A stretch of 64,000 nt of DNA. Source: a virus. The notes beneath the pieces are model-generated. The model had not been told where the DNA came from and did no database searches. It saw nothing but the letters and a program-made list of their open reading frames with translations. This document shows, in pieces, positions 36,032 to 64,000 of the stretch. Numbering within the stretch: the stretch's first letter is position 1; each line of letters starts with the position of its first letter. The translations under genes and the position numbers were made by a program. The stretch lies in IMG/VR virus record IMGVR_UViG_3300021964_010186, positions 15,124 to 79,123 of that record. One strand, 5' to 3'.

Positions 36032-36759
36032 TAGTATCCTGTGTTACCACCCGATGTTGTTCCGCTCACTGTGTTGGACGTTGACAGTGCTGTAGAACTT
36101 GTCTCGGTGAATGTTGTTAAACTCTGTATCCTCAGTGTGTAATCGATCTGTATCAGTCTGTTCAGTGACTTCTGTACCGGATGGAATATCACGTGTGTCA
36201 GTAACTTGTTGGTCGACCCGTTCTCCGTTCCTTCCCAACTCTTAAGACCCAGTTCATCGAAAACATAGTCGCCGTTGAAATCGGTGGTGTTGTCAAACGC
36301 GGCCTGTCCTGTGGGTTCACCATAGTCAAGTGTACAGGTAACCACTATGTCTGTGTACTTGTTGCCCGCCGTGTGTCTCACTTCCATCTTGTTCCTGGTT
36401 GTGTCCTTGTTTGTGGCCGAGTTGTCGTCGATCACTTTATAGTATGTCTGATTGTAAAGTGAAGCATTGGTTCCTGTCGAGTTAGGTGTGAGGTAAGTGA
36501 TGATACCCGTTGGGTCAACGCTTGTGCCTCCGTTGCCAAACGCCATCTCGTGTACGAATCCTGTGGTCTTGTTTGCAAGAGAATTTGCCAGCGCCTGAGA
36601 CATGTTTTCGTAGTGTATCGCGTTCCTCTTGTCAACGATCACTTCGCCCGTCTCTGGATCGAAAATCTTTATGTGCCCCGTCATCATAACACCCGTGTTA
36701 TCCTGAGGCTTGTTGTTCTCTTCTTTTGTTTCAGTTGGTTTGTTGTCTTGCTGTGTCAT
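36031..36759 (-). CDS. baseplate/fibre-attachment structural protein
   Basis: GHIKIFD, NAIHYENMS, MAFGNGG, FDELGL, LLTHVIFHPVQKSLNR; lies between wedge and fibre genes. Confidence 0.65.
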   Translation of the reverse strand: MTQQDNKPTETKEENNKPQDNTGVMMTGHIKIFDPETGEVIVDKRNAIHYENMSQALANSLANKTTGFVHEMAFGNGGTSVDPTGIITYLTPNSTGTNASLYNQTYYKVIDDNSATNKDTTRNKMEVRHTAGNKYTDIVVTCTLDYGEPTGQAAFDNTTDFNGDYVFDELGLKSWEGTENGSTNKLLTHVIFHPVQKSLNRLIQIDYTLRIQSLTTFTETSSTALSTSNTVSGTTSGGNTGY

Positions 36760-36765
36760 CTAGTG

Positions 36766-36771
36766 TATTTA
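36766..36771 (-). promoter_or_regulatory. putative late promoter TAAATA
   Basis: TAAATA 6 nt upstream of ATG 36759. Confidence 0.55.
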
Positions 36772-42700: not shown

Positions 42701-45700
42701 TCACCGTTGTCGTTGGCCGCTATCCTGTGACCGAATCTCTGTCCCGAACCACCCGCTGGTGCCTCTATGGTGTAGTCCTGTGTCCAGGTGTCGTACGTTG
42801 ATCCATCTGCTCCTATGCCCCAGGTGTACATGTACACCCTACCGGTGTCATTGCTGTGTCCGGGTGCTGAAACGAACAGGTACTTGTCTGCCGTGGTCCT
42901 CACAGATGATGTGCCTGGCTCTGATATCTTATGCGCCCATCCAAAATTCTGTGATGCGGCATCGACCGGTGGTGTGATCGTGTTGAGTATTCCGTACTTG
43001 AATGTGCTGGAATCCCACAAGTAGATCTTGACAAGTCCTGAATCCGAGAATCTAGTGCTTCCGTCTGACCCCACCGCGTTCGTGTATGGCGCTCCTGCCA
43101 CAACGAAGTTCTCGTCAGTGCTGATCGAAAGTGACTCGCCCAACCTACTGGTGTTGTCGTCGTTGTCGGTCATCGTTGCCGTTAACTGCGTCTGTAGTAG
43201 CGTTCCCGCCGCGGACGATGTCCTGAACAAGAAGTGTACTTCACCTTGACCTTTGCCTGGTGCTGAAACTATCACTGTCCTTCCGTCATTCCTTGCTACT
43301 ATCCTATGACCGAACTCCTGCTCTGTGGTGCTGATGTCTGGGGACAGTACTAATCCTGTGGTGTATGGATCCTGTTTCTCGTACACACGCCACAACCCCG
43401 AACTGTCAGCGTCCGCGAAAACCTTGTCTCCCTCACGCTCTATGTCGTCATCCTTGTCCTGGTACTCCGAGTAACTGATCAGATCGTTGACATTGTCCAT
43501 GGACGCCAACCTTACCGATATGAATTTGTACACGTTGCCATAACTGTCTGCAGTTGATCCGTCCTCCAGCGCAGGTATGAATCCCACGTTGCCGGTGTAG
43601 TCTATTATGACAGTCTTGTGGTCAGGTGTGCTTGATACCCTGTATACGCCGTTCAGTGTTGGTTCCTCGCTGTTGGCTATGGCAAAGTAATCGGCCTGTG
43701 TGCTTGTTGTCCCCGCCGACAAGCCATGTGATCCCGTGAACGTGATCTCTAGTTGTGTGGAACTATCGACCAGTCTAAGGTCTGCTATCTTGACACCTGC
43801 GTTGGTGATCCTGAACACGTCCCAATCCCTGTTGCTCTTGTTTGCCACCCACACTAGGTCATTGGTGGTTATGGCGTTCATGTCTAGATTGAGTATCTCA
43901 TCTATGTTGAATGCAGTGTGTTGTACCTGTTGCAGTTGTGGGTATCCCGCCGTCTTGTATACCTGTGCCGTGTCTCTGTCCACGCCCTGCTTGGTGTAGT
44001 CCAACCTGGCGAAGGTGTTGGCCGCCGTGTACTCAACTGGCTTGTAGTAGAACTTGTTCTTGGCTATGGCCTCTGATCTGGCATACTCCACCGTGCCAGA
44101 GGATGTGTCCAACAGCTCTATGCTCTGCGGGTCGGCGGTTATCTCATCATTGCTTAGAGTTATCTGTATGTTTTCTACGGAATCAGTGTTGCCGAACTTG
44201 CCGGTACGTATCATCCATTCCGGATAGAGATCCAGCGTGATGTCCTCGCCCTCGTACTTGGCTTTTAGGATCCTGTCTATGGCGTTCTGTGTTCCCTTCT
44301 CCCTGATGTAGCCCTGGTAGAACTTGTACTGTGACACGTCATTGACGAAAAGGTTCTCCAGGTAGTCCCTACTCTGGTAACCGATCAACCTCTGTGCCAA
44401 CTGTTGCTGTGATTCATCGAAGTTGTTGGTCTCCAGGTTGTAGAAGTCATTGAACTGTGCGATTTTGTATTCGAAGTTTGGTATCAACTGCGGTGCTGGC
44501 TTGTCTGACTTTAAGATCCAAGTGGTGCTGTCAAAACTCGTGCCGGAGTTATGATTGATTTTGGCCACGTAGAACTTGCCTTGGTACTCCACACTGTCAC
44601 CTATCCTGTAGTCAGTGTTGGCCAACCAGTATGTGACCTGTGCGGCGTCGAACATGAAGCCCGGTGCGTAGTAGTCACCGTTCCATCCGGCCGTCTTCCA
44701 TCCCACCAATTTCAATCTCTGTTGTCTGAATCCAGTGAATGGTTCATATATGATATCCGAGAACACTGTGCTGTTGTCGAATAATAAAACGTGTTCCTTC
44801 TGTACTGTGTTCAAGGCGATGTTGTATAGACCTATGCTGTCTGACTTGATCCCCAGCTCAAACGTCTTACCTATTCTCTTGGTGGAAATTTCTCGTACGT
44901 CTATCTTCCTGCCGCCCGCATCTAGTATGGAGTAATCTCCCGCCAGGTTCCTTAATTTACCCACGATGCTGTTGTTCGTGTCCAGTTCGAAACCGTCCGC
45001 GGCGGGTGATACCGTCACCGCCGATCCTGGTGACCACTCCTGTGTGGTCCAGAAAAGGAATTCCCTCACGGCGTTTGACCAGTTCAGTGTTTCCTTCAGT
45101 TCATTCGAGAACTTGTTGAATCGGAATCCCTGTGATTCCAACCAGTGGCCGTATCCAAACAGGAAGTCGGCAACATCCTGTATGGTGTTAAAAACATATC
45201 CATAAGGTATGGTCTGTACCGTTTCTTGATAGTTGGTGTATTGTTTAATCTGTTGCGATCCCTGTACCGAGACCGACGTGCTGGTGGTGGTCCTGATGGG
45301 ATAGTTGAAATTGAAGTATGGTTTGACCGTGCTGTAACCCAGTACCTTGTATCCACCTAACAGCGTTGATCCGTCTTCGCTTACATCGGTGTTTTTCTCT
45401 ATCAACACTCCAGAATAGTTGAAACTCTCCACGGGATTTGACGTCCTGAACAGTATCTTGTAGTTCTCGTCTGGTATGAATTTGGAACCCGAGGTCGACC
45501 CAGGTGAAACGGAATCCGTCAGCACCTTGATGTTGTCTTTGTCTGTGAATCCGCCCAACTTGTAGGCCAACTGCACGGTGAGATTCTTCATCTTCTTGTA
45601 GTAGAACGTGATGGGATCTAGATTCTTAGACACCAGATAGTTGACCACTAAAGGCTGATAGCCCGCCGTCTGGTATCTCGTGATCGTGCCGGTGGCTAGA

Positions 45701-48700
45701 TCTGTTACAGTCTCTAAATGATACTTGGCGGTGGCCAATGTTTTCCTGATACCAGTCTCTGAATATATCTGATTGCCCGCCGTGTTGGTCGTGAGCCTAG
45801 ATGGATCAAAGAAGTTAGAGAAGAACCTAGCCGGTTTGGTAAGTGCCAGTGCCTTCATCACAGTGAATGGATAAGAGCTAGATCTCCTCCATGCCGTCTC
45901 CGCTGGTGCTTGATCCCCGAACTTCCATGCGTTCTGCCTGCCTGGTATGTCAAAGTTGTCTATCAGTCCGGCCGCTATGGGATCCAGTAGATTGCCCGAA
46001 GCGTCAACCGGTAGGTATGACCTTATGGTTGATTTGCCGTACCTGCCTGGCTCCGTGGCTATCTTGTTCCACAGCACGTCGTTGCCTGACGTGTAAGGTG
46101 CGGTTCCATAGGTGGCGTCCCAATCTGCCGGTTTCTCTGAGTGTCCGAGCATCTCCCATGGTCTTGTGTGTGGGGAGTCCGTGTCGTAGAAATATTTGTA
46201 GATGCCCCTCCAGTGTCCTGGCAAGGTCTGGTTGTTCAACCTGTCAGTGGATCTGGCGTAGTTGTATGTGAATGGTGAGCCTTCAGAGAATGTGGTGTTG
46301 TTGATGTACTGCACGTTGTTTCTTCCCGCCCATAGGTAGAAGTCTGGTCCCATCACATCATTAATTTCCTGTAGAGTGTAATCCGTTGAGGTGAACGCAC
46401 TAGGCATCACATCATGGATGTCCAACAATGTTGAATCGTATGCTGTCTTACAGTTGTTGTAGATCCTCTTTTCTAATTCCAGTATAAGGTCATCGCGCTC
46501 ATCACCATAGGCCTTGATCATTGATCCATCGTGTCTCCTGATCATGGTCTGATTAGTGATGTATGTGTCGTCCGTGAAAGATTCTGGTTTGAACTTAGGA
46601 TATATGCCCAACTTGGTAGGTGAAGGTGGCATGTAACTGCCTGTGGTGTCCGGGTAGTCCTTGATCACTATCTTATCCCCTTCTTCCAATGCCTTTGTTA
46701 TGTTGACGCTGTCATCAGAGGTACTGAAAGTGTAATCTGTGCCTAGAAGCAGTTGAACATTGTTTAAGTAAACGTAGACTGCCCTGTTGCTAGGAGTTGT
46801 AATATCATGCTGTGAATCCAAAGCATATTCCGTCTGTGATGATCCCATCACAGTGTAATTCCTCACAGACACGTTCTCTCCCCATCCCATCATGTCCTCG
46901 TAGAAGAACGGGAAGGTGTTGTTCCTGCCTGGCGTGATGACTGTTATGATCTCGTCCACCCTGTCAGCGGCCACTCCCTCGTAGGCCGTGCCGATGGCGT
47001 GCGTCAAGAAAGCGTTGTACCATTTCTCGTACTCCTGGTTGACGTAGTCTATGGCCGATGCCATGTTGGTCTCTTGATCTATCAGGCCAAACACTGCGGG
47101 CAATAAAGGTGCCTCGTGCTGGTGTATGCTACCACCCTTCAACCTTGCGTCTGGTTTGTCTCGTAAATTACTTTTCCCTGGAATGGCACCTGTCACTTCC
47201 TGGTTCTTGTCAAATATGTCCCTCACGTGGTTCAGTATCTGTCCATATGTGAACGTGCCCAACTGCTGGTTGAGGCTGTTGGTTGCCAGGTTCTCTGGGA
47301 TCTCGTATATACCCTTGTCCACGATCTTGTCAGCACTGCTGTGCGCCGCTATCCTTATTTGGTCATTGACTTTTAGTTCGCTGTTGAATCTGATGTACTT
47401 GTTCTTTGTTCCATTGACCAGCGTGTAGTCAGTCGTGATTGTTTTCCTGGTCCCGTTAACGGACACTGACACTTCTAGGTCAGTCAGTGAGGCAGAATTC
47501 TTGTAAAAGTCTATCGGGAACAACTGTTTCTCCGTGTCGTCAACTATGAAAGTTCTGATCACCCTCTGTCTGCTCTCGTTGGTCCTTTTGATCCAGGCGC
47601 TCCTTGAGTTGTGCGTGGTCCTGCCTGTGGTGTAGTGTAGGTGTCCTTCCGCCAGGTTCTTTGTGAGCGTCTTTGACCCACTCTTGTAGGTAAACGTGCC
47701 CGACGTATGGTCCGATTCAAAAACGATGTCTCCCACGTTGTTGATGGTGTTGTACTTGACCTTTATGCCCAGCACAGTGTCTGTGGTAGCCGTGTCTGAT
47801 GTGGCGTACGAGAACACCTTGGCTCCAGTGAACGATGAGTTTGGATACGTTGTTGTGTCAGCGAATGACACGTGATTGTTGTCCCACATTCCAAACAAAG
47901 GCTGTTGGTTGACGCCGGTCTTCTGTTGTGAGGCCGTCCATGATTCAGTTGTGCCATCGTAGTAGAAGGTCTTGCCCTGGTTCGTTGTGCCGAACTCTAT
48001 GAACACGCTGTCCAGCGCTGTCGGTGTGCCATCGGTGGCCTCGGTCAATGCGATCACCTGTGTGGAATCACCCGCCGTCACGAAGTACACGTCGTATATC
48101 TTGTTCTTGACTATGGGATCCGTGTCAGAGGCGAAGATGACCCTCATGCCGTTCGCCAACGCTAGGCCGTCCACTATGTAACCGGTCTGTCCCACCACGT
48201 TGCTGAACGCGTCCGTGGTAACTGTGTCGTACAGAGTGACCGATCTCTTGGCCACCGTACCGTGGTTGTAAAGTGCCAGTCCCGAGTCGAACTCTATGAT
48301 GGGTCTCTTGGCCCTGTCGTCCTCGTTCAGTGTAGGGGTGTAGCCTCCCACCCTGGCCGTCTCCTCGATCACGGATTTGTGGAACCACCTGTTGTATCTC
48401 GACCAGGCGTTCTGGTCCTGCGAGTCCCTCTTGATTGTTATGTAGTCTTTTGTGTCTGGGGTGTAGTAGGCCTTGGCGTAGGGTCTTGTGTCATATCCCA
48501 CCTGGTCATAGAGTATGGTGGTCTCCGTGGCGTAACTGCCCGGGGTGATCAGATCGTCAACGTCCGTTAACGTTATTGCATCTCCCACGCCCTCCACGAA
48601 GTACTCCTTGCTCTGGTATGTGGATGCCACCAGTGAATTGGTAAATTTTATCTTCATGCCATTGGACAGTGCCAGCGTCCTCAGGCTGTAATTCTTGACC

Positions 48701-49614
48701 CCTATGATGTCGTCTGCTGGATTGATTGACGTGGTTGCAGTGGCGTCCTTGATCTGAAGTATGCCGTACATGGCGTCATGGTTGCCACACTGGTAATATA
48801 ATGTGTCTGGTGCACCTGAAGTGGGCACCGTGAAGGTGACCGTTCCCTTGTCCGTGCCGTTGTTGGTCACTCCCGTGTCAAATATGGTAGACGTTGATCC
48901 GTCAACGGAAACCTTGCTCTTGTAGGGTTCGGTCATTATCCAGAAAGGATGTCCTACAGCGTCAACATTGAATTTGTATGTGTTGCCCCTGTACAGTGTC
49001 AGTATGGGGTTCTTTTCGTTCTCCCTGTGTGGGAACTCCCAGCCCGAGTTGTCAGAGTATGCCTCTGTCTTGTATTCCACCACTGCCGCGGGGCCAACTG
49101 AATCTATCTCTATAGAACTTGGACCTTCCGGTATCCAGTAGTACTCCCTGTAGTTGACCAGTTTGTCGTAGTCGATGGCCGGGTTCCAACTGTACACGGT
49201 CTCCTTGTTGAGCCTGTCGTGGTTGTTGACCTTGCCTCCGAGGTATTTGATCTGGTTGATGTAGTCGTCATACGTTCCTGTGAACTTGACCTGGTCCTCA
49301 GTATTCACTGATGTGGTGTCCCTGTCGGTGTATGTCACGGCAGGTTCCAATTGGTATGCGAACCTATCCCTGCTGGTGGCTCCTATGTATCTGTCTGTGA
49401 CCTGTCTGGTGTAGGCGTCCTGCCTGCCTATGTACCCATCTAGTCTTTCCAGCGCACCCTTTTGTACCAGTGGATCTAAAGTGCTGGCCAGGAAACGTTG
49501 GTTGGTGTCGGTCCTGTAGAATGCTGGTAGGTGTTGTACCGTTCGTCTGTACTCGTTGGTGCCCTGACGGACTACCTCGTTGTTACTCAGTGCGTTGGTG
49601 GGATTGTCGGCCAT
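36769..49614 (-). CDS. giant (4281 aa) baseplate wedge/receptor-binding structural protein
   Basis: Follows the gp6-like gene; contains KPFHTKLR, a 7-repeat FG-GAP-like propeller, CBM-like modules, a cupredoxin-like module and GDGST beta-sandwich repeats. Confidence 0.8.
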   Translation of the reverse strand: MADNPTNALSNNEVVRQGTNEYRRTVQHLPAFYRTDTNQRFLASTLDPLVQKGALERLDGYIGRQDAYTRQVTDRYIGATSRDRFAYQLEPAVTYTDRDTTSVNTEDQVKFTGTYDDYINQIKYLGGKVNNHDRLNKETVYSWNPAIDYDKLVNYREYYWIPEGPSSIEIDSVGPAAVVEYKTEAYSDNSGWEFPHRENEKNPILTLYRGNTYKFNVDAVGHPFWIMTEPYKSKVSVDGSTSTIFDTGVTNNGTDKGTVTFTVPTSGAPDTLYYQCGNHDAMYGILQIKDATATTSINPADDIIGVKNYSLRTLALSNGMKIKFTNSLVASTYQSKEYFVEGVGDAITLTDVDDLITPGSYATETTILYDQVGYDTRPYAKAYYTPDTKDYITIKRDSQDQNAWSRYNRWFHKSVIEETARVGGYTPTLNEDDRAKRPIIEFDSGLALYNHGTVAKRSVTLYDTVTTDAFSNVVGQTGYIVDGLALANGMRVIFASDTDPIVKNKIYDVYFVTAGDSTQVIALTEATDGTPTALDSVFIEFGTTNQGKTFYYDGTTESWTASQQKTGVNQQPLFGMWDNNHVSFADTTTYPNSSFTGAKVFSYATSDTATTDTVLGIKVKYNTINNVGDIVFESDHTSGTFTYKSGSKTLTKNLAEGHLHYTTGRTTHNSRSAWIKRTNESRQRVIRTFIVDDTEKQLFPIDFYKNSASLTDLEVSVSVNGTRKTITTDYTLVNGTKNKYIRFNSELKVNDQIRIAAHSSADKIVDKGIYEIPENLATNSLNQQLGTFTYGQILNHVRDIFDKNQEVTGAIPGKSNLRDKPDARLKGGSIHQHEAPLLPAVFGLIDQETNMASAIDYVNQEYEKWYNAFLTHAIGTAYEGVAADRVDEIITVITPGRNNTFPFFYEDMMGWGENVSVRNYTVMGSSQTEYALDSQHDITTPSNRAVYVYLNNVQLLLGTDYTFSTSDDSVNITKALEEGDKIVIKDYPDTTGSYMPPSPTKLGIYPKFKPESFTDDTYITNQTMIRRHDGSMIKAYGDERDDLILELEKRIYNNCKTAYDSTLLDIHDVMPSAFTSTDYTLQEINDVMGPDFYLWAGRNNVQYINNTTFSEGSPFTYNYARSTDRLNNQTLPGHWRGIYKYFYDTDSPHTRPWEMLGHSEKPADWDATYGTAPYTSGNDVLWNKIATEPGRYGKSTIRSYLPVDASGNLLDPIAAGLIDNFDIPGRQNAWKFGDQAPAETAWRRSSSYPFTVMKALALTKPARFFSNFFDPSRLTTNTAGNQIYSETGIRKTLATAKYHLETVTDLATGTITRYQTAGYQPLVVNYLVSKNLDPITFYYKKMKNLTVQLAYKLGGFTDKDNIKVLTDSVSPGSTSGSKFIPDENYKILFRTSNPVESFNYSGVLIEKNTDVSEDGSTLLGGYKVLGYSTVKPYFNFNYPIRTTTSTSVSVQGSQQIKQYTNYQETVQTIPYGYVFNTIQDVADFLFGYGHWLESQGFRFNKFSNELKETLNWSNAVREFLFWTTQEWSPGSAVTVSPAADGFELDTNNSIVGKLRNLAGDYSILDAGGRKIDVREISTKRIGKTFELGIKSDSIGLYNIALNTVQKEHVLLFDNSTVFSDIIYEPFTGFRQQRLKLVGWKTAGWNGDYYAPGFMFDAAQVTYWLANTDYRIGDSVEYQGKFYVAKINHNSGTSFDSTTWILKSDKPAPQLIPNFEYKIAQFNDFYNLETNNFDESQQQLAQRLIGYQSRDYLENLFVNDVSQYKFYQGYIREKGTQNAIDRILKAKYEGEDITLDLYPEWMIRTGKFGNTDSVENIQITLSNDEITADPQSIELLDTSSGTVEYARSEAIAKNKFYYKPVEYTAANTFARLDYTKQGVDRDTAQVYKTAGYPQLQQVQHTAFNIDEILNLDMNAITTNDLVWVANKSNRDWDVFRITNAGVKIADLRLVDSSTQLEITFTGSHGLSAGTTSTQADYFAIANSEEPTLNGVYRVSSTPDHKTVIIDYTGNVGFIPALEDGSTADSYGNVYKFISVRLASMDNVNDLISYSEYQDKDDDIEREGDKVFADADSSGLWRVYEKQDPYTTGLVLSPDISTTEQEFGHRIVARNDGRTVIVSAPGKGQGEVHFLFRTSSAAGTLLQTQLTATMTDNDDNTSRLGESLSISTDENFVVAGAPYTNAVGSDGSTRFSDSGLVKIYLWDSSTFKYGILNTITPPVDAASQNFGWAHKISEPGTSSVRTTADKYLFVSAPGHSNDTGRVYMYTWGIGADGSTYDTWTQDYTIEAPAGGSGQRFGHRIAANDNGDILAVSSVAPGNAGKVEIFIKTSQSNDGSTQNSFALAQTITGVASDGSSLNTAFGESLAMNKDGTTLIIGAPGVDGTDNPDTGAVYYYKWNADDSTNTYTLQQTISSPESQTNMKFGTALDINQSGTRIVIGSENFANSREMKFDSGETTFDLQDTNFVDLNTGSGGAFTATMYNTKFVIDDKLINNSVSENDDFGRGVCMIDNSVFVGSPQDDGNIDTADGSSKISNDGTVACFDLTVNGEYAWKNLVTETPLMDIDKLGQVFEFNNKTKQIRDYYELYDPIKGRILGLADREINIKTTWDPATYNFGPNANSKTPWAENHKGEIWWDLSTVKWLWYEQDTQEYRTNTWGKFFPGSSIDIYEWTESTLLPSEWNNRIRGTGQTISGTALYGDNSQYTVVQKYSSRLDAFVNYYYYWVRNKSTVPTDSVVNRKNSASYVANLIANPTRFDFKYYSITGTNKFVINNVKDLVNNDIVLNIDIRTNTFDGDAHSVWKLAREGDKEYRPGQQIETRWWDSLIGKNSAGDLVPDVELPLNEKYGNNTRPRQSWYVDRYSALKEIIDYANSVLKKNQLVGQINLTNLDAKDPEPTAESLEWDSSVDTYAELTYINTADLSGTVKYLVKADETANNFWAIYTWDGTEWSRTKIQTYNTSAYWSYTDWYKTTGDMAHDEDTKIDKQVTYQYELDTLELAVGKHVKVTSADTGGWKLFMRTATGWENVGTENGTIRLSTKLYDYSQDSTGFAGEDNFDDNFFDQEPSIETRKILTALRDDLFINDLAVEYNTLFFTGLRKVLEEQTYVDWMFRTSFINAKNSVRQLDQRKTYTTGTDSWIESYINEVKPFHTKLREYKLGYTGTDTQDGIFTDFDNPPFYDSDTGKIRSLNVSLDTDKLTQYPWQMWNDYHKKYVQSITVTAGGSGYEVAPTVTIVGGTTGSTGPFQIQATSSSGATSGSFGYYYPLFTSQKQAEIYDSQNGGAGTTKSYTFDGYSGTFYGPTASTSEAQGTKSGTFKMYVTPTTTAATATATIRDGAVTRITVTGIGANYTATPTVILSGGKTDGSTPTDTAKAYANLNNDLVRDFDTTIKFDRVSSTSRVVDWAASTSYAYNDLIRYNDQLYKVTNAFTSTTDFDDNIGSVYKVYGNETGLTAADRTKGFYTPGTGMPGNELDQVMLGVDYGGTMVTGLLFNQEQGWDRSGWYDFPWDNYGNSRVKAFRADGSTASYTFDTAPATTEVYQVYLTQDDSTRKKLSDVIRGDGSTATFTISETPEENALVEFIPFDDDGVLTPTDDRTLDSIIKGGLFTSALGYAPSDILLEGDGFVTPDTSYAPEEVVPGQLFDTLDIKVYTSPESGVPFISEKNYRGDGLTTTYSIGDYPGTLGSVTVAVDGVIKKLTTDYTVDVANKTITFTSAPASLSVISTKVFAISGENYRVLDTFTGDGSTAVFLTSTRGEFNLDSTSSDMYITIDGVPTTAYTTTTTANTITVTFTSAPAAGEFIQVAGFNKSTTSTRSYASISNQAITYDGSTNRHTLTYPPGSIGPYSGLTMVEVNGRMLRGPDNTYYLGDGSTYTYGVVSGLGEDSTVDPAKTITSASQVQVFVNGVQKNLNTDYTVDIGNQNVEFVSGAVPTSTDVICISTLVDNHYYNEGTDIILLPSAITSPYSLSSSDVISVTTFNNALGMKQRREVLEGQPSGEFYLRFKPLNATYMYVWLNGEQITQGSYFTSDDTKITIVGKTITSADRLDVMYFALDSAVGATGFRIFKDMMNRTFYKRISKTATTKLTKDMTEGTQTITVADGTVLGTPNVASNTPGVIFIDKERIEYFTKSGNTLGQLRRGTLGTGIKEHGSGTEVVDASGTQTIPYADTVYTTTFTGDGSTLTFALSQTPSSASELDIFIGGQRLLLTSEDGSTINYSVDGSTTAVTLHTTAPASGTQIKILHKKGQVWYTGADGNPADGKGLQASTTQQARFIAQEPTNAPE

Positions 49615-52600
49615 TAGTATCCTGCCCCACTACTGCCGGTCGTTGAACCGGAACCTGTTGTAGTAGAGCCTGATACCGCTGATCCTGTGGTGGTGTTGGT
49701 AGTGGCAGTTGATGTGGATGTCACGACTGTGCCGGAAGCCGCAAGTTGATTGGCTCCCAAAGCACTTATGATTGTGACATCATCAACGGTGGCCCCACTG
49801 ATGAAAATCTCGTCTGCCGCTGAGTCAAGTTGAAACAGAGACCCAAAACTCTGTCCTGACTGGTTTGGCACGATCACTGCCGTCAGTAGATCTGGTGCCA
49901 GTTGGTTGTGTATGTAAGCGGCTAGTTCCGTGAAATAGAAAGTGTCTCCGAAATCCCAGTTGTCCAAGGCGAAGAACTCGTTTATGGCGGCTATCACCCT
50001 AGTCTTGATGACCGCGTCGGTCACATTGGTCTTTGTATTCTTGACCACCTTGAAAGTTGCCTGTAGTTCCTCATCGGCATTGGTGCCGAACAGAATCTTG
50101 TACTTGACCGGATGGTATATGATCTGGTCTGACAATGATTTCAAGGGATTGAGCACACCCGAGTAGTTGATCCTCAACTGGTCTGATGTGGATGTCTGTG
50201 GTTTGGTCCCACCATCCTGTAGCCATATCCTGAATAGGTTGTCGTATGTCCTCTCCAACAGGTAAACATCCACTATGTTGGACACGCTTGGATCTATCCT
50301 GGTCTCCTGGCCCGCATGGTGTTTGTATTGGAAACTGATCGAACTCCTACCCCGTCTTGCTAGGTAATCGGTGGTGGTCGAGAGTGTGTTGGTTGTAGAA
50401 TCGTATTTCTTGATCACGTCCTCACTGGCATCATAGAAGTAGAACAACTGTCCATTGGTGTATGTGGTTGTGTTGAGATTGATGTCTGTTTCGTTCTGTG
50501 TGACCACGAAGTTAGTCGAGGCGTATGGTCTGTATCTCTCTATGTTGTCGTATGAGATGTACTTCTCGAAGAACACGAACTTGGTGGATTCAGACAGTGT
50601 TGGCTCGACTATGATGTCAAATATCTCAGGATTGTCCACAACACCATCATCGTCGTCATCGTAGAATCCCACCTTGACCTTCCTGTTGTCCTGGAACCCG
50701 TCCGCTTCCGTGACCGTGTCCACCACCTGCCACGTGATGGGATATCCCACGCTGTTGCCGGTCGAAACTATGCTGTTGGTCTTCAATATCTTCACGGTGT
50801 CCTTGACGCTCTTGCCCGTCTTGTAGTCGTATATCCTCTCCTCCACGTCATAGTGGAACTTGTTCTGAGATTCAGATTCGAATATGTAATCCAGTTTCCT
50901 GTACTGCACAGTGTATGTGTTGCCATCGTTGGTGAACTTGAACCACCAACTGGCGTCCGCGTTTGTGCCCGCGGTCGATCCCGTGCTGGCCAGATCGAAC
51001 ACCGAACTCGTGCTCAGGTTCGTTGATGTTATGACCTTCCACGTCTCTGTGTTGACGTCGTATCTCAGACCAAACTCCTCGTAGGCCTCTATCCTGTCTA
51101 TGAGGTCCGCTTCTAGCGTTGATGAGAACGCTATGGTGAAATTTGGAATGATCGCATTGATCACCGATCCCTGTGGCACTATATCGTTGAGTGTGACCGG
51201 ACCAAGTCCTGACTCCAGGTTTCCCACTCCACTGTTGGCACCATCACCCACCACTGCGCCTATCTTGGCCCATAGCCTGTCTTCTGCGTTGTCTGTGGTA
51301 GACGTGACCAGTGTCCCATTCAGGAACTTCCTGGTGTCTGGTGATGTGAATTTTATCAATGCTCCTGGCTTTGCGAACTTCATGTTGGAAGTTGCGAAAT
51401 CACCTATGACCAATGCACCACCCGATGTGAAGTAGCCGGTGTTGGTGTTGGTCGATGTTGTGGTGGAATTCCACGTCGCTGTCAGTGTGCTGGTGTCCTT
51501 TGTGCCATACTTCAGGTAGTAGAACTGCCTGGCGTAGGCTTCTTTCAGTTTGGCCTCCACGGACGTGTCTAGGGTCGGTTTTATGTCACTCCTGTTGTTG
51601 AACGTGAACGTGAACTGCTGTACGGATTCCTCCCTGTATATAATACCATCCTCCGCGAAAACTGAAACGTTGGAGTAGGCTCCAGTGGGATCTAGAATTT
51701 CTTTTGCCCTGGATATACCAGAAGCGGACCTGTTCACGGATCTCACTTTTACGATCTCCTGTGATGCTGACAGAGGAACAACTTGGTAGTCCTCCGCAGT
51801 TATCATCCTGTTCTGTGAGTAGTAGACCTGTGCGGCCTTCTCCCGGATGGAATCGTTTGACTCGGTGGCCGCGGCGTTGTACACGCTGGCCTTGAGGCTC
51901 ATCGTTACGGTCAGTGTCTGTTGTGCACCATTGGCGTCCGTGTATGGGACTGCTAACTGTATGTTCTGCATGTCCGCCGGTTGTATGGCGTACTTCGCAT
52001 TGTCACTGATCCTGTGATAGGTCCTGAAAGATCCCAATGGAAGATTCGAGAAATTCCCGTCACCGAAAACTAAATCAATTGCATCGTTGTTCTTGGTGAC
52101 CACGTTGTAGATGTTTCTCTCGCTCTTGGCCAGTGAATTATAAATGGCGTTGTTGCCTGACAGTGATGGTACCTTGGTCCACTGTTCAGACACCTGTCCA
52201 AACTGATCCAACTTGTACAACCACACGTCGGTGTCGTTGATGTTGGTGGTGTTCAGTGATTTCACGTAGTTGGTCTCTGCCGTGTCCACAGTGAAGTCCG
52301 TTGACTGCATTGTGCCCTGTTTGAACAGGAAGAAGAATCCCGTGTTGTTGGAACTATCTCCCGAACCATCCGTCCTGTAGGTGTAGGTGAGACCCGTTCC
52401 CTCTAATGGACTTGATTCATACACGGAATCCGAGTTGTCTATGGTCGACGGCACTATCTCGAACTGCCTGCCTATGCCGCCCACTGATTTGGTGAACTTG
52501 AACACTGGTAGGTCCAACTGGTTTGAACTTAATGTATATACTTCTGTGGTTATGCCACCGATCGTGCCCGACTCCCTGGGATTTCCAAAAAGTTGTCCTG

Positions 52601-60850: not shown

Positions 60851-61070
60851 GAGAAAATTGATAAAAGCATTAAAGGGCCATTACGAAGCAAAGATGACGA
60901 AGTCACAGATATTTGACATGTTCAAGAACCCTCCAACACAGAAAGAATGGTTGAGAGGATATCATCGATGGGTTCAAGAACACACACTGTCAACACCGTT
61001 GTCAGAATACGAAACAATCGAAAATATAGGTAAAAGAAAACGTAGAAGGAAAAATAATGTTAACGATTAA
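60834..61070 (+). CDS. small basic hypothetical protein
   Basis: 78 aa ORF overlapping both gp47 and gp46 genes. Confidence 0.6.
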   Translation: MSRISKRKLIKALKGHYEAKMTKSQIFDMFKNPPTQKEWLRGYHRWVQEHTLSTPLSEYETIENIGKRKRRRKNNVND

Positions 61071-62832
61071 AGAACTCACGGTCAAGAACTTCATGAGCGT
61101 GGGCAACCAGGCACAGGCCATTGATTTTTCTAACAAAAGTTTGGTTTTGGTTATCGGCGAGAACATGGACCTGGGCGGTGACGACGCAGGTGCTAGGAAT
61201 GGTACGGGCAAGACGACAATAATTAACGCACTGAGTTACGTGTTTTACGGCGAAGCGCTCACGAACATCAGGAGGGACAACCTAGTGAACAAGACCAACG
61301 AGAAGGGCATGTTGGTCAGTGTGAAGTTCATCAAGAACGGTGTGACCTACACCATAGAGCGTGGCAGGAAACCACAGATATTCAGATTCTATGCGGATGA
61401 CATCGAACAGAAGACAGAAAGCAACGAGGCACAGGGAGAGAACAGGGAGACACAGATAGAGATCAACAAGTTGTTGGGCATGACACACGCCATGTTCAAG
61501 AACATAGTGGCCCTGAACACCTACACACAACCTTTCCTGAGCACCAAGCAGGCGGAACAGAGGGAGATCATAGAACAGTTGTTGGGCATCACCTTGCTGT
61601 CGCAGAAAGCAGACCTACTGCGTGAAAAACAGAAGGCAACGAAACAACTGCTCACGGAAGAGAAGATGAGATTGGATGCCAAAGTGGCGTCAAACGAGAA
61701 GATACAGGAATCCATAGAGAGCCTCAAACTGAGAAGCGCGGCCTGGACGCAACAGAACAAACAGGACATCGAGAACTTCCGCGAAGCGATAGCGGAACTG
61801 GAGAAGGTGGACAGCGAGATCGAGATCGAGAAACACAAGAAATTACAGAAGCACAACGAGATGCAGACCGCACTGCGTGGACTGATGAAGGAGAAGGCCT
61901 ACCACGAGGACTCGCTGACCAAGGCGGAATCAACAGTGGAGAAGACCGAGAAGGATCTGGAGTTCGCGGAAGCGGCCAAGTGTCCCACGTGTGAACAGGC
62001 ACTGCACGACGACAAGCACGAGCACCTGGTCGGTAAACTAAAGATGAATCTGACGGAAAGTCGAGATTACAGCGACAAACTGAAAAGTGATCTTGCAAAA
62101 ATACAACAAGCGATAGAGGAGATCGGCGACCTAGGACAGGTTCCAGACACCTACTACGACACCATGGACGAAGCCTACAACCACAAGGGCACACTACAAG
62201 ACCTCAAACGACAGTTGGAACAGACAGAGAAGAAAGAGGACACCTACGCCGAGCAGATCGCGGAGTTGGAGAGCAAGGCAATACAGGAAGTGGATTACGA
62301 GAAGGCCAACGAACTGGAGGACCTGCACAGGCACCAGGACTTCTTGTACAAACTGCTGACAGCCAAGGATTCATTCATTAGGACCAGGATCATAGAACAG
62401 AACTTGACTTACCTGAACCAGAGATTGGCGTTCTTCCTGGGCAAGGTCAAACTGCCACACACTGTTACCTTCCAATCAGACCTCAGTGTACGTATCGAGG
62501 AGTTAGGCAGGGAACTGGACTTTGACAACTTGAGTAGAGGTGAGAGAAACAGATTGATACTGTCATTGAGCTGGGCGTTCAGAGATGTTTGGGAATCACT
62601 TTATCAACAGATCAACTTGCTGTTCATTGACGAACTTGTGGATGCAGGTATGGACATATCTGGTGTTGAGAGCTCCATGGCTGTGTTAAAAGACATGGCG
62701 AGGACGCAACAGAAGAACATATTCCTAATATCACACAAGGACGAATTGGTAAGCAGAGTAAACTCCGTGCTGAAAGTGGTAAAAGAAAATGGCTTTACCA
62801 ATTATGCCAATGACGTTGACATCATAGTGTAA
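61057..62832 (+). CDS. recombination ATPase subunit (T4 gp46, Rad50/SbcC-like)
   Basis: KNFMSVG, NGTGKTT, coiled coil with CPTC zinc hook, LSRGE, LFIDE, ISH. Confidence 0.95.
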   Translation: MLTIKELTVKNFMSVGNQAQAIDFSNKSLVLVIGENMDLGGDDAGARNGTGKTTIINALSYVFYGEALTNIRRDNLVNKTNEKGMLVSVKFIKNGVTYTIERGRKPQIFRFYADDIEQKTESNEAQGENRETQIEINKLLGMTHAMFKNIVALNTYTQPFLSTKQAEQREIIEQLLGITLLSQKADLLREKQKATKQLLTEEKMRLDAKVASNEKIQESIESLKLRSAAWTQQNKQDIENFREAIAELEKVDSEIEIEKHKKLQKHNEMQTALRGLMKEKAYHEDSLTKAESTVEKTEKDLEFAEAAKCPTCEQALHDDKHEHLVGKLKMNLTESRDYSDKLKSDLAKIQQAIEEIGDLGQVPDTYYDTMDEAYNHKGTLQDLKRQLEQTEKKEDTYAEQIAELESKAIQEVDYEKANELEDLHRHQDFLYKLLTAKDSFIRTRIIEQNLTYLNQRLAFFLGKVKLPHTVTFQSDLSVRIEELGRELDFDNLSRGERNRLILSLSWAFRDVWESLYQQINLLFIDELVDAGMDISGVESSMAVLKDMARTQQKNIFLISHKDELVSRVNSVLKVVKENGFTNYANDVDIIV

Positions 62833-62922: not shown

Positions 62923-63117
62923 ATGTCAAATGAAACACATGAACAGATCATGACAGAGATACAAACTTACTCAGAAGAGAACGGTAAGTTCGTTGACAAG
63001 GGTGTAAAAGCCTCTGCCACAAGAGCAAGAAAGGCTCTAGCCAATCTCGCTAAATTGATCAAAGCAAGAAGAAAAGAGATTCAAGAAGTCAAGAACGCGG
63101 CCAAAGAGTCAGCGTAA
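62923..63117 (+). CDS. histone H1-like (Hc1-domain) nucleic-acid-binding protein
   Basis: KFVDKGVKASATRARKAL..L.KLIKARRKEI resembles the Hc1 N-terminal motif. Confidence 0.65.
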   Translation: MSNETHEQIMTEIQTYSEENGKFVDKGVKASATRARKALANLAKLIKARRKEIQEVKNAAKESA

Positions 63118-63146
63118 TCGATCATTGGATTTTGCAAAACCATAGG

Positions 63147-63177
63147 ACCCCCGGCTAGAAATAGTTGGGGGTTTTTT
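63147..63177 (+). terminator. intrinsic terminator
   Basis: ACCCCCGGCTA-GAAA-TAGTTGGGGGT stem-loop followed by a T run, between convergent genes. Confidence 0.85.
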
Positions 63178-63583
63178 ACGACTTGAGGATCCCTTTACCA
63201 TGAACGCGAACGCGGATGTGTCCGTTGTAGTAGTCGTTAGATTCTAGAACCTTGCGTGCGAACTGTTCCCTTGCTTCCACATAACTCAACTCTGCCTTGG
63301 AATGGCAATAGAACAAGATCTCCCTCGTGAATTTCTCTTTACCTAATTTTAAAACATCTGCTGTTAGTTCATCACTGCTTCCATAGTAGTCCTGCCAGTC
63401 CGAGTCCACTTTGTATCGCCTTTTGTTTTTCCTGCCCTTGAGTGGCGGGCGGCTACGCTTGAACCTGGCCAACTTCTTGCCGATGTACATCCTGCCGTTG
63501 GTGGTGTTGGTTATCTGGTAAACGAATCCCACCACTTCCTCGGGTAGGTTGGTAATCTCATTTCCTTGGTAGGTCCACGTCAT
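63176..63583 (-). CDS. GIY-YIG family endonuclease (small, single domain)
   Basis: GFVYQITN..NGRMYIGKK, YYGSS, F.REIL, E; start moved to MTWTYQ (63583). Confidence 0.85.
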   Translation of the reverse strand: MTWTYQGNEITNLPEEVVGFVYQITNTTNGRMYIGKKLARFKRSRPPLKGRKNKRRYKVDSDWQDYYGSSDELTADVLKLGKEKFTREILFYCHSKAELSYVEAREQFARKVLESNDYYNGHIRVRVHGKGILKS

Positions 63584-63588
63584 CGTGC

Positions 63589-63594
63589 TATTTA
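63589..63594 (-). promoter_or_regulatory. putative late promoter TAAATA
   Basis: TAAATA 5 nt upstream of ATG 63583. Confidence 0.55.
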
Positions 63595-63683
63595 AAGCCA
63601 AAAAGATTGACCCAGAAAGAAAACTCGTATAAACAAGTACGATAGGCAAACTACAATTTCTCAAAAAATCTTATAGGCAAACA

Positions 63684-64000
63684 TAGCATCGCAACCAGTG
63701 AGCAAGGAAATGCGGCTTAACAGCGACAGGTGAATCCTTTGATGCAAACGGCAAAAAATGATGGGGCTCTTAGAAAAAGATAATCCCCAGGTCCGCCAGG
63801 AACTATCATACAGGGGTTTGGTGGGCTCGCGTTGTAATGAATGAGCTAACGGGTACAGCACAACCGCCCGACTACGGTAGCGATGTATGGTGACTGCGAA
63901 CTCACCACAGGGTTCAAGTCGGTTCGGCTAGAAATAGCCGAATTGTGACTGCTCATCTACCACAGGCGACGCATAAATGCGTCATTTCGTTTCACAACTG
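63684..64000 (+). ncRNA. candidate large structured non-coding RNA (may continue past window end)
   Basis: No credible ORF; successive stems with G-U pairs, a GAAA tetraloop, a possible pseudoknot, and a TTGACC promoter-like element upstream at 63607. Confidence 0.55.
63890..63966 (+). repeat. two copies of GTGACTGC-N6-ACCACAGG
   Basis: Copies at 63890-63911 and 63945-63966, each followed by a hairpin. Confidence 0.75.

What the first reader, a model, noticed from the sequence alone, without database searches (positions are those of the whole stretch)
63600..64000. Large structured non-coding RNA candidate divergent from a GIY-YIG endonuclease
Seen on + strand: GCATC/GATGC (63686-63690 with 63741-63745) closes a junction with three mini-hairpins; TGGGG/CCCCA (63762-63789); GTCCGCCAGG/TTTGGTGGGC (63791-63826, four G-U pairs), whose loop ATCATACA (63805-63812) can pair with TGTATGGT (63884-63891) as a pseudoknot; CGGG/CCCG (63850-63870); TGGTGA/TCACCA; a long GAAA-capped hairpin (63917-63950); GACGCAT/ATGCGTC. 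G-U pairs favour function as + strand RNA. It lacks tRNA, tmRNA, RNase P and group I/II intron hallmarks that I can recognise. Inference: an unclassified large phage RNA (ribozyme, scaffold or protein partner). A link to the neighbouring nuclease is possible but rests on adjacency only.
Basis: partly seen in the sequence, partly recalled or inferred. Interest (0 to 1): 0.75.

Follow-up and report, generated by a model that had tools for sequence, protein, structure and literature searches.

The report
Twin-box structured RNA of giant phages
The gene-free last 400 bases of this phage fragment hold most of a real gene for a large, knotted non-coding RNA that matches no catalogued RNA family, is common in uncultured aquatic giant phages, and shows one short variable word twice, as if it holds two copies of a partner that is still unknown.

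Summary
Window 63640-64000 (+ strand) is the first ~360 nt of a ~420-nt structured RNA gene; the contig ends about 75 nt before the RNA does. Forty-three related phage loci keep the stretch (73-96% identity). On 27 of them, 81 base pairs are 97% kept, and 33 pairs show changes on both sides (0 of 500 shuffles reach this). No frame is conserved and there is no codon periodicity.

Rfam has no match in the window. A model of the 3' half finds full-length relatives in much more distant phage groups. In some of these the 5' third is the orphan Rfam motif Polynucleobacter-1 (RF01718); the window's copy has a different 5' domain.

Two 22-nt modules (63890-63911, 63945-63966) carry the same word, ACCACAGG. 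The word differs between phages, but the two copies stay identical. I found no partner for it.

A small nuclease gene (GIY-YIG, sometimes PD-(D/E)XK) nearly always lies beside the RNA, but a few relatives lack an adjacent one.

Function is unknown. My best guess is a trans-acting scaffold that presents two identical boxes to an outside partner. This scan has already reported the same family on other DNA as "twin-box RNA".

The parts
63607..63635 (+). Promoter-like site: -35 TTGACC (63607-12), 17-nt spacer, -10-like TAAACA (63630-35). The predicted start is about 63642.
   Evidence: The -35 hexamer and the spacing are kept in most relatives while the spacer sequence differs completely between two sister clades (alignment). 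The consensus scan did not list this pair because the second hexamer lacks T6. It listed TAAACA-16-TACAAT (63630-57) instead, but that site is not conserved. The start point is inferred, not shown.
63642..64000 (+). Structured non-coding RNA gene of the twin-box family, cut at the contig end. Relatives continue for about 75 nt with two more conserved hairpins.
   Evidence: Conserved in 43 related loci. 81 pairs are 97% kept and 33 have double changes, reached by 0 of 500 shuffles. No conserved frame or codon periodicity. The window ends at the contig end. The 3' hairpins are seen in relatives.
63644..63683 (+). 5' leader with two copies of AGGCAAAC (63645-52 and 63675-82).
   Evidence: Direct reading. 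A sister clade has three copies. Role unknown.
63686..63745 (+). 5' domain: helix H1 (63686-90/63741-45), H2 (63704-08/63735-39), H3 (63715-16/63723-24), with invariant unpaired AGUGAGC and ACAGGUGAAUCC.
   Evidence: helices 1-3. H2 has three pairs with double changes and H3 has two. This domain takes the place of the RF01718 domain of freshwater relatives and is not matched by RF01718.
63746..63789 (+). A-rich linker (AAAAAAUGA) and hairpin H4 (63762-66/63785-89; inner 63769-71/63777-79) with conserved GCUCU.
   Evidence: helices 4-5. The AAAAxGA + GCUCU box is kept in all subfamilies.
63790..63827 (+). Long hairpin H5 (63790-800/63817-27; 63803-04/63813-14). Its loop 63805-12 forms the pseudoknot.
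   Evidence: helix 6: 11 of 13 pairs have changes on both sides and 98% of cells are paired. It is the top helix in my covariance scan.
63884..63891 (+). 3' arm of pseudoknot PK1, pairing with loop 63805-12.
   Evidence: helix 7: 8 pairs, 99.1% paired, three with double changes. The same loop-to-downstream pairing sits at the same relative place in all subfamilies, with at least 10 unrelated arm sequences.
63850..63878 (+). Family hallmark hairpin CGGGU/GCCCG with the nearly invariant loop ACAGC-NNN-ACC (63850-70), followed by the 2-bp hairpin 63871-72/63877-78.
   Evidence: The closing pair covaries C-G to U-A, and both pairs of the small hairpin covary (helices 9-10). GGGTACAGCNNNACCGCCC retrieved the whole family from viral contigs.
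63890..63911 (+). Twin module 1: GTGACTGC + GAACTC + word ACCACAGG. The word lies in the loop and 3' strand of hairpin Hx1 (63898-903/63910-15).
   Evidence: Hx1 is 88% paired in relatives (helix 11).
63920..63945 (+). Hairpin H9, 11 bp, GAAA tetraloop.
   Evidence: helix 12: four pairs with double changes, 99.3% paired. Kept in all subfamilies as CUUAGCC-loop-GGCUAAG.
63945..63966 (+). Twin module 2: GTGACTGC + TCATCT + word ACCACAGG, 55 nt after module 1. GCTCAT (63951-56) may pair with ATGAGC (63841-46) to close the 3' domain (helix H7, tentative).
   Evidence: H7 is 90% paired in the close family (helix 8) but is no better than shuffles across subfamilies.
63968..63993 (+). Terminator-like hairpin GACGCAT/ATGCGTC followed by a U-rich run.
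   Evidence: Relatives keep a hairpin plus U-run here with different sequences. Some metatranscriptome contigs read through it.
63176..63583 (-). Neighbouring SegE-type GIY-YIG nuclease gene (135 aa), divergent from the RNA. It is a neighbour, not a shown part of the RNA's function.
   Evidence: Pfam PF19835, E 3.2e-36. A homologue lies upstream of the RNA in 77 of 90 loci.

Best explanation
Window 63642-64000 holds a stand-alone gene for a large non-coding RNA, about 420 nt in full. The last ~75 nt are lost at the contig end.

Shown: the RNA is read rightward on the + strand. It folds into a 5' domain (H1-H3), two hairpins (H4, H5), a pseudoknot between the H5 loop and 63884-91, an almost invariant hairpin (GGGUACAGC-NNN-ACCGCCC) and a GAAA-capped hairpin. 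It carries two 22-nt modules, each ending in the same word, ACCACAGG. It belongs to a wide family found in uncultured aquatic T4-like giant phages, always in the same genomic slot.

Inferred: it has its own promoter and ends at or shortly after a terminator-like hairpin. It works in trans as a folded scaffold. Its conserved core holds two identical, largely unpaired boxes (one in a hairpin loop, one just before the terminator-like hairpin) so that they bind two copies, or two sites, of one outside partner. That partner differs from phage to phage. I think a nucleic acid read by base pairing is somewhat more likely than a protein. Over the 12-nt boxes, the two copies differ only by pyrimidine-for-pyrimidine changes (ACUC vs AUCU before the word), and in many relatives also by G-for-A just after it. 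One G/U-containing strand could pair with both versions through wobble.

The neighbouring small nuclease gene is most likely a mobile or fixed neighbour that sits beside a conserved target, not the RNA's partner.
For: Real RNA gene:
- Conserved in 43 of 80 related loci at 73-96% identity.
- RNAalifold gives 69 pairs, 30 of them compensatory.
- My full structure with the pseudoknot has 81 pairs, 97.0% paired against 88.8% in shuffles and 32-39% when slid. 33 pairs have double changes, reached by 0 of 500 shuffles.
- No conserved frame. Variability by codon phase is 0.127/0.129/0.116.
- G-U pairs fit only the + strand.
- Promoter and terminator-like signals flank it.
- Metatranscriptome contigs of four studies cover the RNA of the 96%-identical relative L002 without a break. 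One 362-nt contig differs by 2 letters.

Wide family:
- Model R1 of the 3' half scores 181 bits on the window and finds full-length matches in distant subfamilies.
- The pseudoknot is kept at the same place with at least 10 unrelated arm sequences.
- The synteny gp47-gp46-(Hc1)-nuclease-RNA-baseplate genes is kept in all subfamilies.

Twin boxes:
- Nearly every member checked shows the same word twice, 52-60 nt apart. It is identical within an RNA and differs between RNAs: ACCACAG, GCCACAG, ACUACAAG, AGCACAU, AGUACA, AACAUGAUG, AACGUGAUG, GUGUCAAGU, GGUCAAGU, UGUCAAG, UGCCAAG, GGUGAAG, AGAUGAU.
- Word positions covary with their twins: 63906 with 63961 has normalised mutual information 1.0, and 63904 with 63959 has 0.79.
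- No complementary segment exists inside the RNA.
- Differences inside the extended boxes are mostly transitions.

Independence from the nuclease:
- Two unrelated nuclease folds occupy the slot, on either strand.
- Relatives L182 and L085 have no nuclease gene directly beside the RNA.
- The same word (ACAUGAU) occurs with a PD-(D/E)XK neighbour (L107) and without an adjacent nuclease (L085).
Against: No partner was found:
- The predicted complement 5'-YYUGUGGUGGGU-3' has one exact site in the own 79-kb contig, inside a gene and on the non-transcribed strand.
- There is one site in five relatives' contigs, at about the chance rate and not syntenic.
- These contigs are only 10-27% complete, so this says little.

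Other weaknesses:
- The transition bias is partly explained by structure. The CUC before box 1 is the 5' strand of hairpin Hx1, and the G after the word pairs within it. I also set the box limits after looking at the data.
- Expression rests on assembled contigs of RNA libraries that also cover the flanking genes, so DNA carry-over is not excluded. The ends of the RNA are not mapped.
- The near-constant nuclease neighbour (77 of 90 loci within 3.5 kb upstream, identity tracking the RNA subfamily) is unusual for a mobile gene and could mean a working pair.
Confidence: 0.5

Rival explanations
1. The RNA and the small nuclease next to it form a working pair. The RNA guides, tethers or regulates a minimal GIY-YIG (or PD-(D/E)XK) nuclease that has no DNA-binding domain of its own. 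The two identical boxes pair with the two strands of an inverted-repeat target.
For: A SegE-type GIY-YIG gene lies upstream of the RNA in 77 of 90 loci, and its identity to the window's protein (53-94%) tracks the RNA subfamily. Where it is missing, a PF24608 PD-(D/E)XK nuclease sits in the same slot in five loci. The nuclease is short (135 aa), and the Pfam match to the catalytic domain covers residues 3-123. Two identical RNA words could each pair with one strand of a palindromic DNA site (inference).
Against: The orientation flips: 47 loci are divergent and 30 co-directional. Two unrelated nuclease folds swap in the same place, which is the usual picture of homing-endonuclease genes invading beside a conserved target (established knowledge of T4 seg and mob genes). 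L182 has no nuclease gene in the 1.6 kb of sequence held upstream of the RNA, and in L085 the gene lies 2.8 kb away. The word does not follow the nuclease type. No inverted repeat of the word occurs in the window. Earlier notes of this scan report copies without any nuclease in bacterial islands; I did not test that.
Confidence: 0.13
2. The RNA is a ribozyme, self-cleaving or otherwise catalytic. The invariant hairpin loop and pseudoknot form the active site, and the twin boxes mark processing sites.
For: It has a knotted fold with nearly invariant unpaired nucleotides: AAAAUGA, ACAGGUGAAUCC and the loop ACAGC-NNN-ACC. The size and conservation pattern resemble those of large ribozymes (general knowledge).
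Against: It matches no ribozyme or intron family of Rfam, even at E up to 10. Metatranscriptome contigs run unbroken across both boxes and the segment between them, with no joint between the boxes. There is no flanking gene that could be split exons.
Confidence: 0.08
3. The RNA is a cis-acting leader (a riboswitch or attenuator) that controls the downstream ATE-like transferase gene through the terminator-like hairpin. The two boxes pair in turn with one segment, as in attenuators.
For: In the close family the RNA is followed on the same strand by a terminator-like hairpin, two small hairpins and then a 256-aa gene. Its L182 homologue matches ATE_C. GCGU (63829-32) can pair with ACGC (63969-72), the 5' arm of the terminator hairpin. 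Some contigs read through the terminator.
Against: In subfamilies B and C the next genes are on the opposite strand. In subfamily E the ATE-like gene lies upstream and divergent. The GCGU/ACGC pairing never covaries and has no counterpart in other subfamilies. No segment inside the RNA is complementary to the variable part of the boxes.
Confidence: 0.07
4. The twin modules act at the DNA level, as iteron-like protein sites of a replication origin or as the target of the neighbouring homing nuclease. The RNA fold is secondary, for example an origin primer transcript.
For: There are two 22-bp direct repeats 55 bp apart, about five helical turns. They are identical within a genome and variable between genomes, as iterons are. 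The position is between the recombination-nuclease genes and a divergent structural module.
Against: Helices between and around the modules are kept by compensatory changes, and by G-U pairs that work on one strand only. That is selection on RNA, not on DNA. Box 1 sits exactly in a hairpin loop in every subfamily examined. The differences between the boxes are transition-biased, which a DNA-binding protein would not require.
Confidence: 0.05

Closest known systems
Polynucleobacter-1 RNA motif (Rfam RF01718; Weinberg et al. 2010, PMC2864571)
   Same: Six relatives of this RNA, in the same genomic slot and with the same 3' core, match RF01718 at 38-96 bits. The match covers their 5' third and ends just before the AAAAxGA-GCUCU box. 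RF01718 is therefore the only catalogued piece of this RNA superfamily. Its function is also unknown; the paper lists it only in a table, for Burkholderiales and fresh water/estuary.
   Different: The window's RNA gives no RF01718 match even at E up to 10. Its 5' domain (H1-H3, 63686-63745) has a different sequence and layout. RF01718 (141 positions) does not include the hallmark hairpin, the pseudoknot, H9 or the twin boxes.
GOLLD (RF01998) and ROOL (RF03087) RNAs
   Same: They are large, intricately folded RNAs of unknown function, often carried by phages or prophages (my own knowledge of the literature). They are the nearest kind of thing.
   Different: There is no sequence or structure match. 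This RNA is smaller, about 420 nt against roughly 600-800 nt. It is not next to tRNA genes. It also has the twin co-varying boxes, which are not described for those RNAs.
Repeat-bearing phage decoy RNAs: ToxI-like type III antitoxin mimics and RNA anti-CRISPRs
   Same: These are phage RNAs that present repeated copies of one short recognition sequence to a sequence-specific host protein (my own knowledge). That would explain boxes that are identical within a phage and vary between phages.
   Different: Those RNAs are simple tandem repeats. Here the two boxes are set in a large conserved knotted fold. No toxin or cas gene is nearby. This is a functional analogy only and was not tested.

Membership tests
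Twin-box phage RNA family (this scan's working name; not published) | Hallmark hairpin GGGUACAGC-NNN-ACCGCCC with a covarying closing pair | tested here: met
   Window 63850-70. The closing pair is C-G or U-A in relatives (helix 9). The pattern retrieves the family.
Twin-box phage RNA family (this scan's working name; not published) | Pseudoknot between the loop of the long hairpin and a segment about 15-25 nt after the hallmark hairpin | tested here: met
   63805-12 with 63884-91. Three pairs have double changes. The same place holds unrelated arm sequences in all subfamilies.
Twin-box phage RNA family (this scan's working name; not published) | Two copies of one variable word 52-60 nt apart, the first in a hairpin loop and the second after (A)UCU near the 3' end | tested here: met
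   ACCACAGG at 63904-11 and 63959-66.
Twin-box phage RNA family (this scan's working name; not published) | Full-length match to a covariance model of the 3' half | tested here: met
   R1 scores 181.3 bits, E 1.1e-39, positions 1-157 of 157, at 63826-63981. The window was one of the 31 sequences used to build the model, so a high score is partly by construction. Distant subfamilies that were not in the model also match full length.
Twin-box phage RNA family (this scan's working name; not published) | Genomic slot: after gp47-gp46(-Hc1) and a small nuclease gene | tested here: met
   gp46-like 61057-62832, Hc1-like 62923-63117, GIY-YIG 63176-63583. The same order is found in relatives.
Polynucleobacter-1 (RF01718) | Score at or above the Rfam gathering score (37 bits) | tested here: not met
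   No match in the window at gathering score or at E up to 10 over 63100-64000. The threshold is met in six relatives.
GOLLD / ROOL / other Rfam large RNAs, RNase P, tmRNA, group I and II introns | Match to the family covariance model; for tRNA and tmRNA, an ARAGORN call | tested here: not met
   No Rfam match. ARAGORN finds nothing in the window.
Riboswitch or attenuator leader | Constant position upstream of, and co-directional with, the gene it controls | tested here: not met
   The downstream gene cannot be seen in the window because the contig ends. In relatives the next gene differs and is often on the other strand.

The most novel reading that the evidence does not exclude
The RNA is a programmable recognition module. 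Its two identical boxes, 12-14 nt if wobble is allowed, base-pair with two sites of a host or rival-phage nucleic acid, for example the two strands of an inverted repeat. The knotted core recruits a phage enzyme. One candidate is the always-adjacent minimal nuclease, which would make this an RNA-guided GIY-YIG or PD-(D/E)XK system. Another is that the RNA soaks up a sequence-specific host defence factor.
Probability: 0.1. Interest if true: 0.9.

Novelty: new variant of a known kind. Interest (0 to 1): 0.7.

Why it matters
Large, knotted RNAs with near-invariant loops are rare, and those whose jobs are known are central machines such as ribozymes and ribonucleoprotein cores. This one is widespread in uncultured aquatic giant phages and appears in RNA libraries from fresh water, estuary and salt marsh. 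Apart from the 5' third of some relatives, it is absent from RNA catalogues.

The twin boxes give a direct experimental handle. Whatever reads them must change in step with them, so a partner could be found by pull-down or by covariation once complete genomes or a cultured phage exist. The result would show how giant phages use a dedicated structured RNA, whether for take-over of the host, for counter-defence or for targeting a nuclease.

For annotation, the finding also explains why assemblies of these phages so often break at this spot.

Tried and rejected
1. Known families. Rfam at gathering score over the whole window and at E up to 10 over 63100-64000 gave only noise. ARAGORN found no tRNA or tmRNA.

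2. Cultured phages. blastn of the window's RNA and of two distant members against 50,697 phage records gave no match. Model R1 found nothing convincing within 6 kb of gp46 in PA5oct, Phosso or Atu_ph07 (best hit E 0.18).

3. Cellular genomes. A strict two-anchor pattern found only four contigs. Three are short MAG contigs with close-family copies and one is a chance hit.

4. Splicing or circularisation between the twin words. Contigs of four RNA libraries run straight through. The only joint (8918 to 8958 of L002, one contig) lies in the variable terminator region. The lack of cover over L002 8504-8570 and the scattered contig starts (8609-8699) do not map a 5' end, because these are contigs.

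5. A partner inside the RNA. There is no consistent complement of the word. Mutual information of word columns points only to the twin copy and to phylogeny. UGGUGGG in the H5 3' strand can pair with both boxes in the window, but this is not kept in relatives.

6. A partner in phage DNA. ACCACAGG is enriched in the window (14 against 3.6 expected). The extra copies lie in the sense strand of minus-strand genes, mostly the structural genes of 36-50 kb, and probably reflect codon content (my inference). The predicted partner YYTGTGGTGGGT has one exact site in the own contig and one in five relatives' contigs, not syntenic. Hits upstream of Hc1 in L091 and L101 fall in the conserved gp46 C-terminal coding sequence and do not follow the word in sister loci.

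7. Resemblances considered by eye and dropped:
- RNase P (AAA..GGGCUC, ACAG..ACCGCC, AUGACUG in the same order). The GGGG segment pairs locally and there is no model match.
- 16S rRNA around position 1400 (GUACACACCGCCCGUC). Here the segment is a hairpin.
- Box C/D or kink-turn (AUGAUGA words). These occur in only some subfamilies.
- A codon or anticodon reading of the word. It is not consistent.

9. GCGU/ACGC (63829-32/63969-72) as an antiterminator. It is invariant and absent in other subfamilies.

10. Helix H7 across subfamilies. It is no better than shuffles, so I keep it as tentative.

11. A physical genome end at this spot. Contig ends are scattered over the RNA, so they are assembly breaks.

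Full report
**Where the stretch lies.** The window is the last 64 kb of a 79-kb viral contig, and base 64000 is the contig's end. CheckV estimates the contig at 22% complete. The closest cultured relatives of its gp46/Rad50-like protein are giant phages such as PA5oct, Phosso and Atu_ph07, at 42-48% identity. Upstream of the finding lie:
- a gp46-like gene, 61057-62832 (+);
- an Hc1-like gene, 62923-63117 (+);
- a terminator-like hairpin (alignment);
- a SegE-type GIY-YIG gene, 63176-63583 (-).

From 63584 to 64000 there is no plausible gene.

- On 27 aligned copies RNAalifold predicts 69 pairs, 30 of them with compensatory changes.
Of all cells, 97.0% are paired, against 88.8% in column shuffles and 32-39% when the partners are slid.
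- 33 pairs show changes on both sides, which 0 of 500 shuffles reach.
- The long hairpin 63790-800/63817-27 has 11 covarying pairs.
- In the pseudoknot 63805-12/63884-91, C-G changes to U-A in 13 of 27 sequences, A-U to G-C in 4, and C-G to U-A in 3.
- Variability shows no codon phase (0.127/0.129/0.116), and the longest open frames change strand and frame between relatives.
- G-U pairs fit only the + strand, and the + strand folds better than its shuffles (z -2.75 against -1.23 for the - strand).

TGGTGA/TCACCA overlaps the pseudoknot arm and is broken in relatives. The kept hairpin there is GAACTC/GGGTTC.

**Extent.**
- A -35 hexamer TTGAC(C/T) is kept in most relatives, 17 nt upstream of TA(A/T)A(C/T)A, while the spacer differs completely between two sister clades. 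This suggests a start near 63642. The start is inferred; the consensus scanner prefers another, non-conserved hexamer pair.
- A hairpin plus U-run at 63968-93 looks like a terminator.
- Relatives keep two further conserved hairpins after it. The second, AGAUGGC-GUAA-GCCGUCU, has covarying pairs (helices 13-14). The window therefore lacks about the last 75 nt.

**Expression.** Assembled contigs from four metatranscriptome studies (fresh water, salt marsh, estuary, aquatic) cover the RNA of the 96%-identical relative L002 without a break. One 362-nt contig differs by 2 letters. The flanking genes are covered too, and contigs cannot show ends or strand. This is consistent with transcription but does not prove it.

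**A much wider family.**
- The nearly invariant hairpin GGGUACAGC-NNN-ACCGCCC was used as a pattern and retrieved well over a hundred viral contigs. Among them are groups whose flanks look quite different but share one plan: an AAAAxGA-GCUCU hairpin; a long variable hairpin; GCGUY; the hallmark hairpin; a small hairpin; a segment that pairs with the loop of the long hairpin; a hairpin; a CUUAGCC-loop-GGCUAAG hairpin; UGUGACU; and AUC.
- A covariance model of the 3' half (R1, 157 positions) scores 181 bits on the window and finds full-length matches in all these groups.
- The pseudoknot sits at the same relative place with at least ten unrelated arm sequences.
- All groups lie in the same genomic slot.
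- No cultured phage has the RNA. A scan of 185,579 species genomes found it only on three short MAG contigs.

**Relation to catalogued RNAs.** Nothing in Rfam matches the window. Following a lead from earlier notes of this scan, I tested RF01718 (Polynucleobacter-1). It matches six distant relatives at 38-96 bits. The match covers their 5' third and stops just before the AAAAxGA-GCUCU box. The window's 5' domain is different and is not matched. The only paper in the held library that names the motif lists it in a table and assigns no function.

**The twin boxes.** In the window, GTGACTGC-GAACTC-ACCACAGG (63890-63911) recurs as GTGACTGC-TCATCT-ACCACAGG (63945-63966).
- Across the family the last word differs (more than a dozen versions), but the two copies in one RNA stay identical.
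- The first copy lies in the loop and 3' strand of a hairpin. The second follows (A)UCU near the 3' end.
- Nothing inside the RNA is complementary to the word.
- Aligned without gaps, the similarity extends beyond the word. In the window's own boxes, the three differences within the first 12 positions are all pyrimidine-for-pyrimidine (CUC against UCU). In many relatives a G-for-A difference follows the word, and subfamily B shows GGGUCUG against AAAUCUA.
- One strand containing G and U could pair with both versions through wobble. This is why I lean towards a nucleic-acid partner. The bias is partly structural, and I noticed it after looking at the data.
- Searches for such a partner in the window, the whole contig, the fetched loci and five relatives' contigs gave nothing above chance.

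**The nuclease neighbour.**
- A SegE-type GIY-YIG gene lies upstream in 77 of 90 loci: 47 divergent, as in the window, and 30 co-directional.
- In five loci a PF24608 PD-(D/E)XK nuclease fills the slot instead.
- Two unrelated nuclease folds in both orientations beside a highly conserved sequence is the classic picture of homing-endonuclease genes. L182 has no nuclease gene in the sequence held upstream of the RNA, in L085 the gene lies 2.8 kb away, and the word does not follow the nuclease type.
- The occupancy is high, and the protein's divergence tracks the RNA's, so I keep a working pair as the first rival, at about 0.13.

**Verdict.** This is a real RNA gene, cut by the contig end. It is a member of a wide and mostly uncatalogued phage RNA family that this scan has already reported on other DNA. 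Its function is unknown. My best-supported reading is a trans-acting scaffold that presents two identical boxes to an outside partner. The fold, the family and the twin identity are shown. The partner and its nature are inferred.

Noticed in passing
window 64000 (contig end); relatives L003, L007-L011, L013, L018-L020, L031, L033, L040, L041, L045: The window's contig and 15 of the 43 related contigs end inside or just after this RNA gene, at scattered positions. The conserved RNA flanked by variable genes seems to break metagenome assemblies, much as rRNA genes do. It does not look like a physical genome end.
   Followed up: partly
relatives, directly upstream of the RNA (e.g. L190:6473-6985, L197:6302-6814, L107:2183-2683): In five loci that lack the GIY-YIG gene, the slot upstream of the RNA is filled by a 166-176-aa protein of one cluster. 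The three members tested are PD-(D/E)XK nucleases (PF24608, E 1e-22 to 1e-26). Two unrelated small nucleases therefore alternate in one slot.
   Followed up: partly
relatives, next to the RNA (e.g. L004:11248-12018, L182:10172-10903): A gene of about 250 aa lies beside the RNA in 43 of 90 loci, either downstream on the same strand or upstream and divergent. Its L182 homologue matches the arginyl-tRNA-protein transferase C-terminal domain (ATE_C, E 5.9e-8). It is usually paired with a 170-aa protein that has no Pfam match. It cannot be seen in the window because the contig ends.
   Followed up: partly
window 63645-63652 and 63675-63682: The RNA's 5' leader carries AGGCAAAC twice. A sister clade has three copies in a leader that is otherwise unrelated. 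Role unknown.
   Followed up: no
window 36560-49691, minus strand: ACCACAGG occurs 14 times in the window against 3.6 expected. Nine copies lie on the minus strand, eight of them inside minus-strand genes (seven in the structural genes of 36-50 kb) in the sense direction. They probably reflect codon content (Thr-Thr-Gly, my inference) and not targets of the RNA.
   Followed up: partly
L004:8120-10685: In one close relative, two extra minus-strand genes lie with the GIY-YIG gene between the Hc1 gene and the RNA: a 338-aa protein with a weak radical-SAM match and a 378-aa protein with no Pfam match. The slot is a hot spot for gene insertion.
   Followed up: no
L199, L200, L201 (MAG contigs NZIV01000049.1, JBMOJS010000364.1, NHCU01000061.1): Three short contigs binned into bacterial MAGs (Neomarinimicrobiota, Pseudobdellovibrionaceae, a TMED41 betaproteobacterium) carry close-family copies of the RNA at 160-179 bits. 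They are probably phage contigs that were mis-binned.
   Followed up: no
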